From a virus, in IMG/VR virus record IMGVR_UViG_3300045988_077852: DNA of 46,784 bases. One strand, given 5' to 3'. A model generated the notes under the pieces. The model ran no database searches. It was given only the letters and a program-made list of their open reading frames with translations, and was not told the origin of the DNA. The position numbers and the translations under genes are program-made. Below are positions 10,337-35,459 of the stretch, piece after piece. The first letter of the stretch is position 1. Each line of letters starts with the position of its first letter.

Positions 10337-10504
10337 ATAAATGTAACAAGTAATAAGTTGTTGAATAAATTATTATAAGATTTCATTTTTAGTTTTAAAT
10401 GAGAGTGGTTTGTTTCGGAGATACTTTTTCATGTTATAATACTTTAATCCTTTCTTTATTGTTTTGTTATGTATATAGTACGGTGGATTCCTCACGGAGT
10501 CCGT

Positions 10505-10578
10505 GGAAGTATAACTCAGTTGGTCAGAGTAGTCGGCTCATAACCGACCTGTCACAGGTTCGAGCCCTGTTGCTTCCA
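10505..10578 (+). tRNA. tRNA with CAU anticodon (elongator Met or lysidine-modified Ile2; not initiator-like)
   Basis: Hand-folded cloverleaf. Acceptor GGAAGTA/TGCTTCC (one G-U). D arm ACTC-AGTTGGTCA-GAGT. Anticodon arm GTCGG-CTCATAA-CCGAC. Variable loop CTGTC. T arm ACAGG-TTCGAGC-CCTGT. Discriminator A. No encoded CCA. Confidence 0.9.
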
Positions 10579-10705
10579 TTTGCTCACTGTTGTGAGCATG
10601 AGAAATCATTTTTGAATTTCCTCAATTTTTTGGTTTAAATTTCATTTTTCAACACGACACCTTTTTTCATCAATTGGTGTTCCTCAATCTTATCCTTATT
10701 GTTCA

Positions 10706-30420: not shown

Positions 30421-30469
30421 TTGCAATGTCGAAAATGATATGATATTATAAACAACGTTGAAGCGAGAA

Positions 30470-30488
30470 TGTTCCATTTTCGTTCCAA
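30470..30488 (+). repeat. Two GTTCCA iterons on the left (P) arm of attP
   Basis: TGTTCCAT (30470-30477) and CGTTCCAA (30481-30488), spaced 11 bp. Confidence 0.6.
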
Positions 30489-30537
30489 CCAAAATTGAGA
30501 AAACATGAGTTTATGCGGTTTGAGAGCATTTTGACCC

Positions 30538-30584
30538 CTTGACTTTTAATCAAGTTGTCCGGGGTTCGAATCCCCGCACGCTCA
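30538..30584 (+). other. attP core: 3' two-thirds of a tRNA-Lys(UUU) gene (anticodon arm to discriminator)
   Basis: CTTGA-CTTTTAA-TCAAG (anticodon TTT), variable loop TTGTC, T arm CGGGG-TTCGAAT-CCCCG, 3' acceptor strand CACGCTC plus A. There is no matching 5' acceptor strand or D arm upstream. Adjacent to the integrase. Confidence 0.7.
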
Positions 30585-30592
30585 CTTTAAAA

Positions 30593-30630
30593 AGCACGGT
30601 TGCCAAATGGCTAAATACCGTGCTTTTCTT
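30593..30630 (+). terminator. Intrinsic terminator following the tRNA-like attP core
   Basis: Stem agcacggt (30593-30600) / accgtgct (30617-30624), followed by TTTTCTT. Confidence 0.65.
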
Positions 30631-30705
30631 GTATTTATGCGGTTTTTAAGGATATGACTTATCTAAAAATCATACCCTTAAAAGTAACCGAAAGTAACTT
30701 GAAGT

Positions 30706-31959
30706 TTAGGGAAGTATTTGTTCCATAGCTGTTCCATGTTCCATTTTTGTTCCAGAAACATTCTTGAAAAGCCATGATAATAAATCTCTGAGTTGTTCCA
30801 TTTTTTGTTCCACTGGTTGTTCCATTTTTTGTTCCAAATCTACGAAACTTAATGCATTATTTACAGCAGACACTTTATCTTCTTTTTCCATCATGATATG
30901 GTTGTATACTTTCATTACAACTTCTTCTGAATCTCCAACTAATTTAGCAACCATCTTGATACTGATAAGTGGAATCTGGTAGCATAAACAAGAACAATAA
31001 TTATGTCTGAAAACATGGCTTGTCAATCCCTCGATGATACTAGGGCTGACTGCCTGCATAGCTTTTAATATTCTGTCAAACATTCTTCGAAAACCAGATT
31101 TTGTCATAGGTTTGTAGTTTTGGTTTACAAAAAGATATTTTCTTTTGTCTTTCCTCAGCATAGATATATAGTCGGCTATATAATCAAATACACTGTTAGG
31201 AATTGGAAGTATTCTTTCTCCGTTAGTTATATTTTTTACCGTTTTTACAAAAGGAATATTATCTGATATGTCGTGAGATTTAGTGATAGATACTGTATGG
31301 GCTTCTAAGTCGAAGTCACTTTCTGTTAGTGCTAGAGCTTCTCCACGCCTTAATCCACAGCCGTAAAGGATGTAGGCATACAATTTATCCATTGGTTTAA
31401 AATCTGCCGTAAAAACGGCTCTCTGTTCGTCTGGTGTCAAAGCACGTTGTTCGTCTGCTTTATATTTGATTCCCTCAAAATCGTCAAAAACGTCTGCGAA
31501 TGTTTGAGCAGAGAAAATACGATCACGTACAGCACTACGCAATATTTGCTTGAATGTCATAGCAATCTGCTGTTGAGTTCGTGGATGCCCTGTAGCATGG
31601 TTTAATAGCAATTGGAAATGTTTTCGCTCAATGTCTTGCAATTTGGTATAAGCTATCGGAATAAAATGTACGTTGATAATGTTTTCATACATTTTGTTTG
31701 TATTATTAGCACGACTAAATTCTTTGTATAAATGTCTCCATTGTACAGCATATTCAATAAATAATATGTCAGTTTCAATGATTCCACGACGTTCATCCCT
31801 TAATCGTTCAAATTCTTTTACTTTCTTTTCAAGGTCCTTAGAGCTTTTTGGAGATCGCAGGTGTTTATATTTTTTTTTACCGTTATCCTTGTATGTACCA
31901 TCCCACACGTTGGTAGAATAGTAACCGTCTTTACCTTTTTTGAATTTAGCTGTTGCCAT
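30706..31959 (-). CDS. int: tyrosine integrase with a ~45-aa C-terminal extension encoded by iteron DNA (417 aa)
   Basis: GLRRGEALAL (Arg), HVFRHNYCS (H-x-x-R), VMKVYNH (Tyr). Arm-binding-type basic N-terminus. AAGGAG RBS. The C-terminal KMEQPVEQKMEQ...GTKMEHGTAMEQ is encoded by GTTCCA repeats. Confidence 0.9.
   Translation of the reverse strand: MATAKFKKGKDGYYSTNVWDGTYKDNGKKKYKHLRSPKSSKDLEKKVKEFERLRDERRGIIETDILFIEYAVQWRHLYKEFSRANNTNKMYENIINVHFIPIAYTKLQDIERKHFQLLLNHATGHPRTQQQIAMTFKQILRSAVRDRIFSAQTFADVFDDFEGIKYKADEQRALTPDEQRAVFTADFKPMDKLYAYILYGCGLRRGEALALTESDFDLEAHTVSITKSHDISDNIPFVKTVKNITNGERILPIPNSVFDYIADYISMLRKDKRKYLFVNQNYKPMTKSGFRRMFDRILKAMQAVSPSIIEGLTSHVFRHNYCSCLCYQIPLISIKMVAKLVGDSEEVVMKVYNHIMMEKEDKVSAVNNALSFVDLEQKMEQPVEQKMEQLRDLLSWLFKNVSGTKMEHGTAMEQILP
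30719..30837 (+). repeat. Eight GTTCCA iterons in two clusters within the 3' end of int
   Basis: Cluster 1 starts at 30719, 30730, 30738 and 30748. Cluster 2 starts at 30794, 30806, 30818 and 30830, with an exact 12-bp period. 30793-30829 is an inverted near-copy of 39242-39278. Confidence 0.8.
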
Positions 31960-32036: not shown

Positions 32037-32064
32037 TTGAAAAATAACATAGATGTGTTACAAT
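32037..32064 (+). promoter_or_regulatory. Promoter P3 (same family as P1/P2)
   Basis: TTGAAA (32037-32042), 16 nt spacer, TGt-TACAAT (32059-32064). The downstream TATAAATG matches P1. Confidence 0.5.
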
Positions 32065-32069
32065 ATAAA

Positions 32070-32162
32070 TGAACTTTCTATAATTTAATATTTTATAATC
32101 CAACGATGTTATGGAAAAAGGAGTTACCGATTCTTATTAGTCTTCACGGTGGCTCTTTTTTT
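32070..32162 (+). ncRNA. Candidate small RNA 1 (~90 nt, promoter P3 to terminator)
   Basis: No RBS-preceded ORF. Ends in hairpin GAGTTACCG (32121-32129) / CGGTGGCTC (32147-32155; two G-U pairs) plus T7 (32156-32162). Confidence 0.35.
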
Positions 32163-32168
32163 ATACCC

Positions 32169-32197
32169 TTGCGTGACCGCACTGTTAATGATACAAT
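32169..32197 (+). promoter_or_regulatory. Promoter P4
   Basis: TTGCGT (32169-32174), 17 nt spacer, TGa-TACAAT (32192-32197). Confidence 0.4.
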
Positions 32198-32203
32198 AAT
32201 AGT

Positions 32204-32278
32204 TGGCTAGACTTTATTAAATCAAAAACAGTGTTTTTGGAGACTGTACCACATTCGGGCGTGGTACGGTCTTTTTTT
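32204..32278 (+). ncRNA. Candidate small RNA 2 (~75 nt, promoter P4 to terminator)
   Basis: Ends in a 12-bp stem agactgtaccac (32241-32252) / gtggtacggtct (32261-32272; one mismatch) plus T7. Convergent with the 3' end of gene 32283-33098. Confidence 0.3.
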
Positions 32279-32282
32279 ATTG

Positions 32283-33098
32283 TTATTTAACTTCCCAAGA
32301 TTTACCGCAGTCTTGGCAAATTGCCATTTGTTTACTGTTAATATCTGTCTTAGATGATTTCTTTTCTTTGTATTTAGACTTTTTAGGTGTTAATGCCCAC
32401 AGACCGCCAGTCGCTGCGATCATACCTGCACGTCCCAGACTGTTACCTGCACGAGTCACAACACTCTTTTTACGGACCTCAGATTTTCCCTTTGTTTTAG
32501 CTGAGTCCTGCACAAACTCATATCCTATATTCAAGCTGTGACACTTAGGACAGTATGGTGCATCCAGATAAAAAATCTTATAAAAATCTTCGGCTTTTTT
32601 GCTGTCTACCTTTTTCAAAATTTCATAGTAAGCATCCCTAGACCTGTCTTTATCCGCTTTGATTTTACTTGCATTAAAACCAAAATTACCGTTAAATTTA
32701 CGCATTTCATAATCATAAGTTAACTGATTAATAGCATCATTTGTATAATCCAGTTTGACAATAATATCTTCTTTTGGATTCTCTTCTGCCTTATCAAAAC
32801 GGCATAAATAGAAGCTGTCTTTTGCTACATAAAGTATATGTGTTAGCGTAGAAAGAAAACCACTATCTGTATATTTACCTGCTGTGATAATTAAATCACT
32901 AGGTTCATTAACAATACCTTTTTCTATAGCAATCTCAATCGTTTTTTCATCAATTTCATACTGCGGAACTTCATTATCAGCAGTAGAAACAGTAGCTAAT
33001 TCTTTTAATATTTCCTCTGTTGGGCATCCACAATTTGGGCAAGCAGAAGCTTTTTCAGAGAACTCTTTCCCACATTCAGTACAAGTTATTAATGCCAT
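32283..33098 (-). CDS. double zinc-ribbon protein of unknown function in the int-repressor moron slot (271 aa)
   Basis: Trimmed to the ATG at 33098 (AAGGAGGG RBS). N-terminal ribbon CTECGKEF...CPNCGCP. C-terminal ribbon CPKCHS...CQDCGKSW. A short hydrophobic segment GRAGMIAATGGLWAL lies between basic stretches. Confidence 0.7.
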   Translation of the reverse strand: MALITCTECGKEFSEKASACPNCGCPTEEILKELATVSTADNEVPQYEIDEKTIEIAIEKGIVNEPSDLIITAGKYTDSGFLSTLTHILYVAKDSFYLCRFDKAEENPKEDIIVKLDYTNDAINQLTYDYEMRKFNGNFGFNASKIKADKDRSRDAYYEILKKVDSKKAEDFYKIFYLDAPYCPKCHSLNIGYEFVQDSAKTKGKSEVRKKSVVTRAGNSLGRAGMIAATGGLWALTPKKSKYKEKKSSKTDINSKQMAICQDCGKSWEVK

Positions 33099-33126
33099 GT
33101 AAAAACCCTCCTTTTTATAACAATCA

Positions 33127-33246
33127 CAGGCAAGGTGGCAACCACAATCGCAGGCAAATCGCAGGCAAGAAACCACGTATTTATGCGGTTTTCAAGACTT
33201 TTTGCATAGTTGCATCACAGGCAAATCGCAGGCAAATGACAGGCAA
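33127..33246 (+). repeat. Iteron-like CAGGCAA heptamers (six exact, one degenerate), mostly at 11-bp phase
   Basis: Exact copies at 33127, 33151, 33162, 33218, 33229 and 33240. Degenerate GTGGCAA at 33136. Located upstream of gene 32283-33098. Confidence 0.75.
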
Positions 33247-33313
33247 ACATCAATCAACTATGCATTTTCTTTTTTTAAAGTCCAAGAAACAACGGTTTTA
33301 TGCGGTTTTCAGC
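33165..33313 (+). repeat. Two ~32-nt direct repeats CAAGAAAC-N-ACG-NN-TTTATGCGGTTTTCA, each followed by one arm of an 11-bp inverted repeat
   Basis: Units at 33165-33196 and 33283-33313. ACTTTTTGCAT (33197-33207) is the exact reverse complement of ATGCAAAAAGT (33317-33327). The 8-bp IR TGCATAGT (33203-33210) / ACTATGCA (33257-33264) flanks the triple iteron. Confidence 0.75.
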
Positions 33314-33495
33314 ACCATGCAAAAAGTTTTTTAAATTTGTGATTGACAAAACAATGTTTTTAGTGTATTTTTATTTTCTTTTATATAAATATATAGTATC
33401 TAAAGACTATAGTTATATATAACCTATATAGTATTATAATAATTAATATTTATATTTAATTAAAAAGAAAAAAATAAAACAAAAAAAGAAAAACA

Positions 33496-33951
33496 TTAGA
33501 GCTGTTTGAATGCAATTAGCTGAGGGGTGTATCCTGTCAGCATTGCAAGTTGCTCTTTTGTATAATCTTTGTGTTCAAGTATCACTTCGTCTGGTATCAA
33601 AAGTTCAGAAGCAAATGTCTGTGCTTCTTGTTCGATAGAGTTCTCATAACAGTTCTTGCCGAATGAGAAGAAATAAAAATCTTCTTTGTGCAGGACCGCA
33701 TGACCTAACTCATGAGCTAAGACCTCGTGATACTTTTTTTCGTTTTCTAATAATTTTTCGTTTATGTAAATAAAATCTCTTTCGTGAATCTTTAAATAGC
33801 AACCAGATATTTTTTTTAAGTCCCCAATCTGGATGATTATGTCTAATTCTTTTGCAAGCCTAACAGGGTTTCTGGTTTCGTATTTTTTAATCAAATTGTA
33901 TACAATAGATTTAATTTGATTATGATTCATACATTCATATCCTTTCTTCAC
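33496..33951 (-). CDS. ImmA/IrrE-family zinc metallopeptidase, probable anti-repressor protease (151 aa)
   Basis: HEXXH motif AHELGHAVLH. Overlaps the 3' end of the repressor gene (GTGA). Classic repressor-protease pairing. Confidence 0.85.
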   Translation of the reverse strand: MKKGYECMNHNQIKSIVYNLIKKYETRNPVRLAKELDIIIQIGDLKKISGCYLKIHERDFIYINEKLLENEKKYHEVLAHELGHAVLHKEDFYFFSFGKNCYENSIEQEAQTFASELLIPDEVILEHKDYTKEQLAMLTGYTPQLIAFKQL

Positions 33952-34901: not shown

Positions 34902-35066
34902 ATGAATTTTGATGATTTGTTCTACTACCTAAATTACGGCAGAACGAGAAAACAAAAAAAGAGAGACTTAATGTTTTTAAGAACTCTCTTCTTCATAAAG
35001 CTTGCTACATTGATTTTGATGATAGTAATGCTTGCTATTTATGTATATCTACTAATAGCGAAATAA
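34902..35066 (+). CDS. possible small membrane peptide (54 aa)
   Basis: AGAGGGTG RBS. My translation: MNFDDLFYYLNYGRTRKQKKRDLMFLRTLFFIKLATLILMIVMLAIYVYLLIAK*. The 3' end overlaps convergent gene 35035-35289 by 32 nt. Confidence 0.35.
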   Translation: MNFDDLFYYLNYGRTRKQKKRDLMFLRTLFFIKLATLILMIVMLAIYVYLLIAK

Positions 35067-35289
35067 AAGCAATGACAACAGAAATAAAAGCTAAAGCAGT
35101 ATTGATAAGGACCATACCTTTAGTCCATAACCATTCTTTACGAATTGCTTTGATAAGCTGTTTATCATTTTCTAAAAATTTTAAAATTTCATCTTGAACC
35201 TTTTGATTTTTGGAATAGTCAGAAGATTTCATTTTATCAATGGTTTCTTCATCTGGTTTATCAAGATGTGGTAAAGGATTTTTAGACAT
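35035..35289 (-). CDS. C-terminally membrane-anchored protein, lone leftward gene in the early region (84 aa)
   Basis: Trimmed to the ATG at 35289 (AGGAGG RBS). TGtTATAAT extended -10 upstream. C-terminal TM MVLINTALAFISVVIAFISLLV. Confidence 0.55.
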   Translation of the reverse strand: MSKNPLPHLDKPDEETIDKMKSSDYSKNQKVQDEILKFLENDKQLIKAIRKEWLWTKGMVLINTALAFISVVIAFISLLVDIHK

Positions 35290-35333
35290 AGTATACCTCC
35301 TAAGGAGATTATAACACAGAAAGGAGTACAGAA

Positions 35334-35459
35334 ATGTATATTCCACCATTTCAATTAGGAATATTTGTAGGAGCTGTAGGAGTAATTGCATTTGAAATCA
35401 CAGCTGTATTAATCGACAACTACAGAAGTAAAAAGAGAAGAGAAGCACAAAAGAAATAA
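35334..35459 (+). CDS. possible small hydrophobic peptide with basic tail (41 aa)
   Basis: AAAGGAG RBS. My translation: MYIPPFQLGIFVGAVGVIAFEITAVLIDNYRSKKRREAQKK*. The start region overlaps the promoter of the leftward gene. Confidence 0.4.
   Translation: MYIPPFQLGIFVGAVGVIAFEITAVLIDNYRSKKRREAQKK

What the first reader, a model, noticed from the sequence alone, without database searches (positions are those of the whole stretch)
32283..33098. Lone double zinc-ribbon protein in the classic moron / defence slot between integrase and repressor
The 271-aa product has an N-terminal zinc ribbon (CTECGKEF-x9-CPNCGCP). The ~170-aa central region is one I cannot assign. The C-terminal part has a second split ribbon (CPKCHS ... 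CQDCGKSW) interrupted by a basic stretch and a short hydrophobic segment (GRAGMIAATGGLWAL). The gene is transcribed in the lysogenic direction, as are int and the repressor. It has its own elaborate upstream repeat array and is convergent with the candidate sRNAs. In temperate phages this position typically holds lysogenic-conversion, superinfection-exclusion or abortive-infection genes. With its private regulatory architecture, it is the second-best candidate here for an undescribed system.
Basis: inference. Interest (0 to 1): 0.7.

Follow-up and report, generated by a model that had tools for sequence, protein, structure and literature searches.

The report
Prophage zinc-ribbon protein with membrane-hairpin module
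This is a real gene of a gut temperate phage whose conserved tail end defines an undescribed, phage-only protein family. The family sits in the two genome positions where phages usually keep genes that stop rival phages from injecting DNA, but its function has not been tested.

Summary
A 271-aa ORF (minus strand, 33098→32283, strong SD) lies between the ImmA/repressor pair and the integrase, and is under strong purifying selection (dN/dS 0.06).

It has three parts:
- an N-terminal 4-Cys zinc ribbon;
- a rare PH-like central domain (9 hits among 1.84 billion representative proteins);
- an ~88-aa C-terminal module: a TFIIS-type zinc ribbon with a long, very basic β-hairpin capped by the conserved GRAGMIAATGGLWALTPKKS helix-turn-helix.

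No Pfam, PHROG, PADLOC or NCBIfam model and no PDB or BFVD fold matches the central domain or the C module.

The C module is the mobile, defining element. About 115 protein clusters carry it behind variable front ends, 23 of 96 with transmembrane helices. At least 545 clusters are a homologous 77-aa stand-alone form whose cap is plainly hydrophobic.

Relatives occupy two slots: repressor–X–integrase, with tyrosine or serine recombinases, and directly upstream of the tape-measure gene (the HK97 gp15 position). My best reading (about 0.4) is a prophage-expressed protein anchored on the inner membrane face that excludes superinfecting phages.

The "private" upstream array is real, but its 12-mer is shared with both attP arms.

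No function was tested. Interest is moderate.

The parts
32283..33098 (-). CDS of the 271-aa three-part zinc-ribbon protein (stop codon 32283-32285)
   Evidence: Homologues of 268-275 aa at 48-99% identity. dN/dS 0.06 vs L001. AF2 mean pLDDT 90.9.
33106..33113 (-). Shine-Dalgarno AAGGAGGG, 7 nt upstream of the ATG
   Evidence: Sequence read. Conserved in L001 and L003.
33021..33092 (-). N-terminal 4-Cys zinc ribbon (residues 3-26; C6, C9, C20, C23)
   Evidence: Sub-threshold Pfam DZR and Zn_ribbon hits. Cysteines at least 90% conserved. The MALITCTECGKEFSDKAxACPNCGCP head is shared by many gut-phage proteins.
32559..32966 (-). Central PH-like beta-sandwich plus two C-terminal helices (residues 45-180). 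Rare, and swapped as a cassette between related phages.
   Evidence: Domain-only AF2 model pLDDT 91.4, pTM 0.87. Only weak PH-domain fold hits: TM 0.45 or less, E at least 0.2. 9 hits in 1.84e9 representative proteins. No nucleotide similarity to L003 between window 32990 and 32471, while both flanks align.
32292..32555 (-). C-terminal ~88-aa module (residues 182-269): a TFIIS-type zinc ribbon (C183, C186 / C261, C264). Its beta-hairpin is extended to about 20-residue strands. Net charge of residues 183-271 is +12.
   Evidence: AF2 strands 191-210 and 243-261. Alignment A4: 63% mean column identity across otherwise unrelated proteins. 95 of 96 complete modules are C-terminal. Weak TFIIS ribbon matches.
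32385..32462 (-). Conserved cap of the hairpin (residues 213-238, VVTRAGNSLGRAGMIAATGGLWALTP). Helix-turn-short helix; inferred membrane-dipping tip.
   Evidence: AF2 helices 213-229 and 233-236. Near-invariant N219, R223, M226, T230, G232, L233, W234, L236, T237, P238. The equivalent segment in the 77-aa short form is 15 uncharged hydrophobic residues.
33123..33168 (-). Proximal cluster of 11-nt direct repeats TTGCCTG(C/T)(G/C)AT (3 copies)
   Evidence: Conserved in L001 and L003.
33214..33246 (-). Distal cluster of the same 11-nt repeats (3 copies at 11-nt phase)
33166..33194 (-). Proximal 29-nt repeat containing AAACCGCATAAA (33180-33191), the motif shared with the attP arms
33283..33311 (-). 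Distal 29-nt repeat containing AAACCGCATAAA (33297-33308)
33340..33495 (.). Very A+T-rich spacer between the immA stop and the repeat array. Almost invariant among related phages.
32239..32274 (.). 14-bp hairpin directly after the stop codon. It is a clean intrinsic terminator for the convergent + strand RNA, and a hairpin without a T-run for the gene itself.
   Evidence: The hairpin is retained, with sequence changes, in L001 and L003.
32037..32280 (+). Two tandem sRNA-like units convergent with the gene. Unit 1: promoter 32037-32064 to hairpin about 32123-32168. Unit 2: extended -10 TGATACAAT 32188-32198 to terminator 32239-32274.
   Evidence: RNA fold z-score -4.72. No Rfam match. Specific to this lineage, not to the protein family.
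30510..30521 (-). attP far-arm copy of AAACCGCATAAA (linked cis element, not part of the gene)
   Evidence: It lies just beyond the prophage junction at 30538.
30634..30645 (-). attP int-side arm copy of AAACCGCATAAA

Best explanation
**Gene and product (shown).** The gene is a lysogeny-module accessory gene (moron) of a temperate phage of gut Lachnospiraceae/Eubacterium. The phage integrates into a tRNA gene. In the prophage the integrase is the first gene and this is the second.

**Architecture (shown by sequence and predicted structure).** The product is a cytoplasmic three-part protein:
- an N-terminal zinc ribbon;
- a variable PH-like domain;
- a conserved C-terminal zinc ribbon whose beta-hairpin is a long basic stalk with a small-residue/hydrophobic helix-turn-helix at its tip.

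**Location (inferred).** I infer that the tip dips into the inner leaflet of the cytoplasmic membrane and the basic stalk lies on the anionic lipid surface. The protein would then be a monotopic membrane protein. This is built like the eukaryotic LITAF domain but is not demonstrably related to it.

**Function (inferred).** It would be expressed from the prophage by read-through from the repressor-immA operon and/or from a promoter within the repeat array. The most likely role is superinfection exclusion: interfering, from the cytoplasmic face, with the membrane channel that an incoming siphophage builds with its tape-measure protein. The cassette-swapped central domain would set specificity.

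**Regulation (inferred).** The upstream array carries a motif also present on both attP arms. Transcription of this gene, and of int downstream, is therefore probably modulated by the integrase arm-binding domain or by an excision factor.
For: **Real, constrained gene.** dN/dS 0.06. AF2 pLDDT 90.9. P0001, 99% identical to the window protein, is a cluster of 821 member sequences. About 45 IMG/VR contigs carry a near-identical gene.

**Prophage geometry.** Prophage-type contigs break at window 30538, inside a tRNA-like hit at 30524-30584.

**Membrane inference.**
- 23 of 96 proteins with the module have Kyte-Doolittle (KD) transmembrane helices between the two ribbons, or after the module.
- Relatives of the central domain end either in a glycine-zipper split ribbon or in a true transmembrane helix in place of this module.
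- The 77-aa stand-alone form is homologous (hhalign 99.6%, E 1.7e-23). Its cap is 15 uncharged residues, with a 15-residue KD median of 2.26, and basic residues on both sides.
- Residues 183-271 carry net charge +12.

**Exclusion inference from position.**
- Repressor(-ImmA)-X-integrase recurs in L001, L003, L006, L009, L069, L072 and L075. The recombinase is a tyrosine or a serine type.
- The short form also recurs immediately upstream of PHROG-confirmed tape-measure genes. This is the slot of HK97 gp15, an inner-membrane exclusion protein (PMC3594210).
- The lysogeny-module slot is that of Ltp (PMC3952083).

**Cassette swap.** The central domain has no nucleotide similarity to L003 while the flanks are conserved.

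**Regulatory link.** The exact 12-mer occurs four times only: two copies in the array and one on each attP arm. This layout recurs in the related phages examined.
Against: - No experiment and no homology to any known exclusion or defence protein.
- The tip in this long form is only moderately hydrophobic (best 15-residue KD 1.07). Its many invariant polar residues would equally suit a specific protein or nucleic-acid contact.
- The very basic hairpin could bind nucleic acid.
- No sigma-70-like promoter was found upstream on the gene's strand. Expression in the lysogen is assumed, not shown.
- Fewer than half of the 80 short-form loci could be assigned to either exclusion-type slot with my low-sensitivity screen.
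- Genes next to the tape-measure gene could be true tail or ejection components rather than morons.
Confidence: 0.4

Rival explanations
1. Abortive-infection or toxic membrane effector. The N-terminal ribbon and PH-like domain sense a phage component. The C-terminal hairpin then oligomerises through its small-residue helix and damages the membrane, killing the infected cell.
For: - A variable front end joined to a conserved membrane-active module is the usual layout of single-protein abortive systems.
- GxxxG-like spacing in the tip helix.
- Glycine-zipper variants in relatives.
- An Abi_alpha gene lies in the same element as one relative.
Against: - No PADLOC hit.
- The 77-aa minimal form has no sensor domain, yet sits in the same slots.
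- A hairpin held by a zinc ribbon cannot span the bilayer, so pore formation is hard to picture.
Confidence: 0.17
2. A helper for the phage's own life cycle at the membrane. It would be a partner of the tape-measure protein in genome delivery or tail assembly, or a lysis-timing factor, and not a host-protecting gene.
For: The short form recurs directly upstream of tape-measure genes and inside the tail operon on the same strand. Long forms P0046 and P0165 sit next to proteins of more than 1100 aa.
Against: The window gene and many relatives lie in the lysogeny module, transcribed away from the late genes. Positions vary, which suggests a dispensable gene.
Confidence: 0.1
3. A DNA-binding recombination or regulatory factor (excision factor or architectural protein). 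It would bind the repeats upstream of its own gene and the attP arms through its basic hairpin.
For: - It is adjacent to the integrase in many lineages.
- Net charge of residues 183-271 is +12.
- The 12-mer is shared between its upstream region and both attP arms.
- No Pfam-recognisable excisionase was found in the window.
Against: - The same module occurs far from any integrase, in tail and head modules.
- It is fused to transmembrane helices in 23 of 96 proteins.
- Its short form has a plainly hydrophobic cap.
- Relatives lacking the array keep the gene.
- The integrase has a long N-terminal region that could itself read arm sites.
Confidence: 0.07
4. An addiction (type I toxin-antitoxin-like) module. 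A membrane-active protein would be held in check by the convergent small RNAs, stabilising the prophage.
For: Two structured + strand RNA units converge on the gene, z-score -4.72. The product has a membrane-active-looking tip.
Against: - Predicted overlap with the mRNA is limited to the shared terminator hairpin.
- The protein is 271 aa, far larger than type I toxins.
- The sRNA region is specific to this lineage and absent from most relatives.
- The RNAs lie equally well placed to act on read-through into int.
Confidence: 0.05
5. A lysogeny-switch accessory. It would sense a membrane or envelope state and feed into ImmA-mediated repressor cleavage or integrase expression.
For: It lies immediately downstream of immA in five lineages (window, L001, L003, L006, L009). 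Its upstream region shares a motif with the attP arms.
Against: Several relatives sit next to a repressor with no ImmA. Many sit outside the lysogeny module altogether.
Confidence: 0.05

Closest known systems
HK97 gp15 (inner-membrane superinfection-exclusion protein encoded by the first-named moron)
   Same: Both are small prophage accessory genes. The 77-aa relatives of this module sit directly upstream of the tape-measure gene, with upstream neighbours that were mostly not identified. HK97 gene 15 lies between the tail assembly chaperone and tape-measure genes (PMC3594210). Both are predicted or known to act at the cytoplasmic membrane.
   Different: There is no sequence relationship; gp15 belongs to the enterobacterial YebO family. 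gp15 has no zinc ribbon. The window gene is in the lysogeny module and carries two extra domains. Exclusion has not been tested here.
Ltp of Streptococcus thermophilus phage TP-J34 (Sie2009 of lactococcal P335 phages is cited from memory only)
   Same: Each is a single gene inside the lysogeny module of a Gram-positive siphophage. [quoted passage not shown]
   Different: Ltp is a lipoprotein on the outer face of the membrane. This protein has no signal peptide, and its zinc ribbons argue for a cytoplasmic location. No PHROG or Pfam hit links them.
LITAF / SIMPLE-like domain (Pfam PF10601), a eukaryotic monotopic zinc-ribbon membrane anchor
   Same: Both are built as two CxxC knuckles of one zinc ribbon separated by a membrane-embedded segment, so that both ends stay on the cytosolic side (PMC5142333). 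The 77-aa and glycine-zipper relatives reproduce this layout closely.
   Different: - The window module has no PF10601 hit.
- Only 3 of 22 relatives give sub-threshold hits, best 21.1 bits against a cut-off of 23.8.
- hhalign against the human LITAF domain gives 2.5% probability.
- The window form has a roughly 20-residue two-stranded basic stalk and only a moderately hydrophobic tip.
TFIIS-type zinc ribbon (Pfam PF01096)
   Same: Both show the CPxC...N(I/V) and CxxCGxxW signature. Sub-threshold matches occur in 20 of 22 modules. The profile hits TFIIS chains in the PDB at E 0.04. Both have a protruding beta-hairpin.
   Different: All scores for the window are below the gathering cut-off (14.3 against 21 bits). 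The hairpin tip is basic and hydrophobic, with a roughly 30-residue insert, instead of the acidic DE loop. There is no link to RNA polymerase.
PHROG phrog_2546, phrog_3845 and phrog_6837 (phage proteins of unknown function: N-terminal zinc ribbon plus a C-terminal split ribbon with a glycine-zipper insert)
   Same: They have the same overall layout and the same MALITCTECGKEFSDKA head. Distant relatives of the window's central domain (P0123, P0125, P0126) belong here. The window protein hits phrog_2546 weakly, E 1.1e-5.
   Different: The window's C module aligns with the glycine-zipper module only over the first knuckle. The link runs through the 77-aa short form. These PHROGs have no known function either.

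Membership tests
LITAF-like zinc ribbon (PF10601) | Pfam HMM score at or above the gathering cut-off (23.8 bits) | tested here: not met
   There is no hit for the window protein or its isolated C module at E up to 1-5. The best relative is P0090 at 21.1 bits. 3 of 22 modules match at E up to 1.
LITAF-like zinc ribbon (PF10601) | Two cysteine knuckles of one zinc ribbon flanking a hydrophobic segment of about 22 residues | tested here: inconclusive
   The knuckles are present and conserved. The segment between them is 74 residues, and its best 15-residue hydropathy is 1.07. The homologous 77-aa form has a 15-residue uncharged stretch, KD 2.26.
LITAF-like zinc ribbon (PF10601) | Monotopic membrane insertion with both termini cytosolic | not testable with these tools
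   This needs fractionation or protease-protection experiments, as done for LITAF (PMC5142333).
TFIIS-type zinc ribbon (PF01096) | HMM match above the cut-off (21 bits), and an acidic hairpin tip | tested here: not met
   The window module scores 14.3 bits. 20 of 22 relatives match at E up to 1, and at least three score close to the 21-bit cut-off when scanned as whole proteins (19.7-22.1 bits). The tip is basic and hydrophobic. The shared scaffold signature CxxC...CxxCGxxW is present.
Superinfection-exclusion proteins (Ltp, HK97 gp15) | Sequence or profile homology to a known exclusion protein | tested here: not met
   PHROGs, Pfam and NCBIfam give only zinc-ribbon or unknown-function hits.
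Superinfection-exclusion proteins (Ltp, HK97 gp15) | Gene position: lysogeny module, or moron next to the tape-measure gene | tested here: met
   Lysogeny slot in the window and seven relatives. The tape-measure-adjacent slot is recurrent for the short form.
Superinfection-exclusion proteins (Ltp, HK97 gp15) | Expressed from the prophage; blocks genome entry without blocking adsorption | not testable with these tools
   This needs lysogen transcriptomics and infection assays.
Known anti-phage defence systems (PADLOC-DB v2) | Match to any defence-protein model | tested here: not met
   The only hit is a chance-level match of the zinc ribbon to a type II REase model, E 0.059.
Bacterial PH domain (central region) | Pfam bPH match or a significant fold match | tested here: inconclusive
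   There is no Pfam hit. The best Foldseek hits include PH domains (3hsa, TBC1D23, Dbs), but E is at least 0.2 and TM at most 0.45. The topology, a beta-sandwich followed by helices, is PH-like.
Moron (independent transcription unit in a prophage) | Own promoter and own terminator | tested here: inconclusive
   A hairpin follows the stop codon directly. No sigma-70-type promoter was found on the gene's strand in 33100-33500. A 385-nt conserved intergenic region precedes the gene.
Recombination directionality factor / excisionase | Small winged-helix or HTH_17-type DNA-binding protein | tested here: not met
   There is no such domain. The predicted fold is two zinc ribbons plus a PH-like domain.
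Type I toxin-antitoxin | Small hydrophobic toxin whose mRNA is overlapped by an antisense RNA | tested here: not met
   The product is 271 aa. The convergent RNA units end at the hairpin just outside the coding sequence.

The most novel reading that the evidence does not exclude
The C-terminal module would be a new phage-borne class of monotopic membrane anchor: a zinc ribbon holding a re-entrant hairpin, a prokaryotic-virus counterpart of the eukaryotic LITAF design. It would define a large, unrecognised family of exclusion proteins in gut Firmicutes phages. These proteins would act from the cytoplasmic face on tape-measure-mediated genome entry. In the window form, a swappable PH-like domain would set target specificity. 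Expression would be wired to the integration state through integrase or excision-factor sites shared with attP.
Probability: 0.2. Interest if true: 0.75.

Novelty: new variant of a known kind. Interest (0 to 1): 0.5.

Why it matters
Temperate phages of Lachnospiraceae and related gut anaerobes are abundant and almost unstudied experimentally. Which prophage genes shape phage-phage competition in the gut is an open question.

This gene is common: the cluster of its 99%-identical relative P0001 has 821 member sequences, and about 45 viral contigs carry a near-identical copy. Its C-terminal module defines a family of at least 660 protein clusters that no domain or phage-family library describes.

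If the family is an exclusion or defence function, it adds a new protein type and a testable tape-measure link to a field built largely on a small set of model phages.

If the tip is a membrane anchor, it is an independent invention or a distant relative of the LITAF design, and a compact tool for tethering proteins to the inner membrane face.

The motif shared between the gene's upstream array and the attP arms is also a concrete handle on how integrase expression and accessory genes are coupled in these phages.

Tried and rejected
- **Curated libraries.** Pfam, PHROGs, PADLOC and NCBIfam on the whole protein gave only sub-threshold zinc-ribbon hits.
- **PDB by sequence.** Profiles of the central domain and the C module gave nothing for the centre (prefoldin, E 2) and TFIIS at E 0.04 for the C module.
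- **Fold search.** Foldseek of the full model against PDB and BFVD, and of the centre alone against PDB, gave no match with E below 0.01.
- **Exhaustive HMMER search with the central-domain profile.** It returned 9 hits in 1.84 billion representative proteins, so there is no deeper family to lean on.
- **LITAF homology.** Rejected as membership and kept as an analogy.
- **Upstream array as an RNA element.** Rejected: z-score -0.49.
- **Array as repressor operators.** Rejected: the cI-cro region uses a different TTCCGAAC-type motif.
- **Array as attP itself.** Rejected: prophage contigs break at 30538, next to a tRNA-like core.
- **Array as a replication origin.** Iterons next to an A+T-rich stretch would fit, but I could not test this.
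- **Rfam.** No match for the sRNA region.
- **A recognisable excisionase elsewhere in the window.** None found by Pfam.
- **Literature.** Searches for zinc-ribbon exclusion or defence proteins in this slot found nothing relevant.
- **P0019 and P0020.** These are chimeras of the N-terminus with a segment unrelated to the rest of this protein, probably assembly artefacts, and were ignored.
Full report
**1. The observation**

The ORF is on the minus strand, from the ATG at 33098 to the stop at 32283-32285, and encodes 271 aa. An AAGGAGGG ribosome-binding site lies 7 nt upstream. The mechanical ORF runs on to a GTG at 33176, but that extension is only the translated repeat array. Every homologue starts at MALI(T/K)C.

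C261, C264. All eight are at least 90% conserved in a 65-sequence alignment. Two small corrections apply:
- The spacer inside the first ribbon is 6 residues, not 9.
- The unassigned centre is about 155 aa, not about 170.

The gene is clearly coding. Against the orthologue in L001, pS is 0.71 and pN is 0.12, giving dN/dS about 0.06. All three parts are constrained.

The neighbours are as described. All lie on the minus strand:
- a tyrosine integrase at 31959-30706;
- an ImmA-like Peptidase_M78 at 33951-33496;
- an XRE/CI repressor at 34385-33948.

A cro-like gene, ERF and RusA follow on the plus strand. A CHAP endolysin precedes the integrase.

**2. Where the gene sits in the prophage**

The window is in the phage (circular) arrangement. 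About 45 IMG/VR contigs carry a near-identical gene. When aligned to the window, most contigs stop at 30538. This is inside a tRNA-like Rfam hit at 30524-30584.

The phage therefore integrates into a tRNA gene. In the prophage the integrase is the first gene and the zinc-ribbon gene is the second. The genome records that hold relatives are an uncultured Eubacterium sp. and a Lachnospiraceae bacterium from the human gut.

**3. Anatomy of the protein**

AlphaFold2 on the 65-sequence alignment gives mean pLDDT 90.9 and pTM 0.71. The predicted parts are:
- the N-terminal ribbon, residues 3-24;
- a helix, 27-42;
- a domain of one helix, six strands and two C-terminal helices, about 45-180;
- a C-terminal module.

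In the C-terminal module the two CxxC knuckles clamp the base of a very long beta-hairpin, with strands 191-210 and 243-261. A helix (213-229) and a short helix (233-236) cap the hairpin.

Predicted alone, the central domain gives pLDDT 91.4 and pTM 0.87.

Foldseek finds nothing significant in the PDB or BFVD. Among the least-bad hits for the centre, several are PH domains, with TM at most 0.45. I therefore call it PH-like in topology only.

Charge is polarised. Residues 1-182 carry -11 and residues 183-271 carry +12.

**4. What is conserved: a mobile C-terminal module**

The homologue search shows three layers:
- About twelve clusters are full-length orthologues at 48-99% identity.
- Dozens of others share only the first ribbon and the last ~88 residues.
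- A third group shares only the first ribbon.

The consensus of the last ~88 residues is CPxCxSxNI...KGxSEVRKKSxVTRAGNxxGRAGMIxATGGLWALTPKKSKYKE...CQDCGxSW. Mean column identity is 63% across proteins that are otherwise unrelated.

What lies between the two shared ends varies: it can be nothing, extra zinc ribbons, the PH-like domain, or one or two transmembrane helices.

Of 96 complete modules:
- 95 are at the C-terminus;
- 80 follow another zinc ribbon;
- 23 are in proteins with hydropathy-predicted transmembrane helices.

A profile search adds 54 more clusters. No Pfam or PHROG model covers the module. The only consistent, sub-threshold resemblance is to TFIIS- and TFIIB-type ribbons. These appear in 20 and 16 of 22 modules, and as TFIIS chains in the PDB at E 0.04.

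The central domain is rare. An exhaustive HMMER search of 1.84 billion representative proteins gives 9 hits.

**5. Evidence that the cap of the hairpin meets the membrane**

Four observations point the same way.

(a) Some long-form proteins place two transmembrane helices between the two ribbons. That keeps both ribbons on the cytoplasmic side, next to the membrane. One places a transmembrane helix and an outside domain after the module.

(b) The distant relatives of the window's central domain end differently. Three end in a split ribbon whose insert is a glycine zipper. P0127 ends in a true transmembrane helix plus an outside domain. These endings appear to be interchangeable.

(c) A 77-aa stand-alone protein is homologous to the module (hhalign 99.6%, E 1.7e-23 over 75 columns).
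- In it the cap reads GCLWxxGRxxLIxCTCGLWLLVGKRKG.
- That is 15 uncharged residues, with a 15-residue hydropathy median of 2.26.
- Basic residues lie on both sides, and net charge is +10.
- Both ends of this segment return to the same zinc ribbon, so it can only dip into the membrane, not cross it.

(d) The stalk is strongly basic, as expected for a surface that lies on anionic lipid.

The design is that of the eukaryotic LITAF domain, a monotopic zinc-ribbon anchor (PMC5142333). Membership fails, however:
- There is no PF10601 hit for the window.
- Only 3 of 22 relatives give sub-threshold hits.
- hhalign against the human domain gives 2.5% probability.

One caveat applies. In the window's long form the cap is only moderately hydrophobic (1.07), and many polar residues are invariant: E207, R209, K211, S212, N219, R223, K239, S241, Y243. 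A specific protein or nucleic-acid contact is therefore not excluded.

**6. Genomic contexts**

The repressor(-ImmA)-X-integrase order recurs for the following:

| Locus (protein) | Form | Recombinase |
|---|---|---|
| L001 (P0004) | full length | tyrosine |
| L003, L004 (P0008) | full length | tyrosine |
| L006 (P0013, 158 aa) | long form without the centre | tyrosine |
| L009 (P0026) | extra ribbons | tyrosine |
| L069 (P0129) | long form | serine |
| L072 (P0180) | 77-aa form | tyrosine |
| L075 (P0182) | 77-aa form | serine, at the end of an element beside cotJ |

A distant relative in Anaerostipes phage AC844P2 also lies between a CI-like gene and a likely integrase (398 aa, not checked), next to a secreted Ig-like protein.

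Other members lie elsewhere in phage genomes:
- P0138 sits between a minor head protein gene and the scaffold gene.
- P0148 sits alone on the opposite strand near an antirepressor gene.
- P0062 sits near a ParE toxin gene.
- P0046 and P0165 sit beside proteins of more than 1100 aa.

The 77-aa form is a large family of 545 clusters. I examined 80 IMG/VR loci with a deliberately simple phmmer screen:
- 18 have a recombinase within 2.5 kb downstream on the same strand.
- 24 have an XRE gene upstream.

In the remaining loci a layout recurs: small ORFs, then the 77-aa gene, then a protein of 840-1250 aa. PHROGs identifies that large protein as the tape-measure protein. Thirteen of 108 neighbour proteins match, and the top-ranked families are nearly all tape-measure families.

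[quoted passage not shown] It is an inner-membrane protein that blocks genome injection (PMC3594210). The lysogeny-module position is that of Ltp (PMC3952083).

No relative was found in a housekeeping context.

**7. Mosaic structure**

Between the window and L003 the 385-nt upstream region and the first ~35 codons are about 90% identical. For codons 1-27, pS is only 0.12. The last ~60 codons and the integrase are about 74% identical.

Nothing aligns at the nucleotide level between 32990 and 32471. The central domain is thus exchanged as a cassette between conserved ends. This is the pattern expected of a specificity-determining part.

**8. The regulatory surroundings**

The upstream array is real and conserved, but it is not private.
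- Its two 29-nt repeats contain AAACCGCATAAA.
- This 12-mer occurs exactly four times in the window, all in the same orientation.
- Two copies are in the array (33180-33191 and 33297-33308).
- One copy lies on each side of the attP core (30510-30521 and 30634-30645).
- The same two-plus-two layout holds in L001 (73-77% nucleotide identity), L029, L047, L049, L055 and L060. L015 shows only the far-arm att copy. L003-L005 end before the far arm.

The cI-cro operators use a different motif. As RNA the array is unstructured, z-score -0.49.

The simplest reading is a DNA site for the integrase arm-binding region or for an excision or architectural factor. Such a site would couple transcription through this gene and int to the recombination machinery. 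What binds the 11-nt repeats is unknown.

No sigma-70-type promoter was found on the gene's strand. Read-through from the repressor-immA operon is therefore a live possibility.

Downstream, two plus-strand units with promoters and terminators converge on the gene. They are strongly structured (z-score -4.72), and their hairpins are kept with base changes in L001 and L003. They overlap the gene only at the shared hairpin, and they are equally well placed to act on read-through into int.

Both the array and the RNAs belong to this phage lineage, not to the protein family.

**9. Most likely function**

What is shown:
- a real, constrained, abundant prophage gene;
- a new three-part architecture;
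- a mobile C-terminal module;
- a phage-only distribution;
- two recurrent genomic slots.

What is inferred:
- The cap is a monotopic membrane anchor on the cytoplasmic face (about 0.6).
- The gene is expressed in the lysogen.
- The protein excludes superinfecting phages by interfering with tape-measure-mediated genome entry (about 0.4 for the exclusion reading as a whole).

The rivals are:
- an abortive membrane effector (0.17);
- a helper for the phage's own delivery or assembly (0.10);
- a DNA-binding recombination factor (0.07);
- a toxin controlled by the small RNAs (0.05);
- a lysogeny-switch accessory (0.05).

**10. Novelty and score**

The kind of thing, a prophage accessory membrane protein in an exclusion-type slot, is known. 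The protein family, its C-terminal domain and the attP-linked array are not described in any library or paper I could search.

I rate it a new variant of a known kind, with interest 0.5. It is a good, cheap experimental lead with an unusually clear structural hypothesis. It is a single gene, not a multi-gene system, and its function is untested.

Noticed in passing
window 30496-30650: This is the attP region. A tRNA-like 61-nt segment lies at 30524-30584 on the + strand (Rfam tRNA, 32.6 bits; ARAGORN does not call it). Most of the prophage-type IMG/VR contigs break at 30538. One exact AAACCGCATAAA lies on each side, and the int terminator hairpin is at about 30597-30622.
   Followed up: partly
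window 30469-30487, 30736-30754, 30792-30836: A second set of direct repeats (ATGTTCCATTTTYGTTCCA-type, TGGAAC on the int strand) flanks the attP core. The largest cluster lies inside the 3' end of the integrase gene, where it encodes a repeated (K)MEQ motif. These may be further arm-type sites.
   Followed up: no
window 32037-32280 (+): Two tandem sRNA-like units, each with its own promoter-like site and terminator hairpin, lie between int and the zinc-ribbon gene. The RNA fold z-score is -4.72 and there is no Rfam family. The hairpins are kept with base changes in L001 and L003. They could act on read-through into int rather than on the zinc-ribbon gene.
   Followed up: partly
window 33340-33495: A stretch of about 155 nt of extreme A+T content with palindromic TATA runs lies between immA and the repeat array. 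It is almost invariant among related phages, even where the coding genes differ. Iterons next to an A+T-rich stretch would also fit a replication origin. This was not tested.
   Followed up: no
window 32471-32990 versus L003: Only the central domain of the gene has been replaced as a cassette. Both flanks align at 74-90% nucleotide identity and the middle not at all.
   Followed up: partly
window 35035-35391 (-): A minus-strand ORF sits inside the plus-strand early region. Its C-terminus is a clear hydrophobic helix (LINTALAFISVVIAFISLLV). It has no Pfam hit and may be a second moron-like membrane protein.
   Followed up: no
window 10504-10579 (+): A complete tRNA-Met (CAT) gene lies inside the structural-gene region of the phage.
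   Followed up: no
L001 6163-7368: A related phage (43-kb contig) carries a reverse transcriptase (RVT_1) between the lysis genes and a large tail-region protein. This suggests a diversity-generating retroelement. I did not check whether the window has one.
   Followed up: no
P0176-P0295 (77-aa relatives): The hydrophobic cap of the short form carries three further cysteines (GCLW ... CTCG). They are invariant in the five short-form sequences aligned in A7 and at least 80% conserved in 82 sequences, but are absent from the long form. Their role inside a supposed membrane segment is unexplained.
   Followed up: no
L075/L076 1077-3931: The element carrying the 77-aa relative P0182 has a run of about eight consecutive small XRE-type HTH genes upstream of it, ending at a serine recombinase beside the host cotJ operon.
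   Followed up: no
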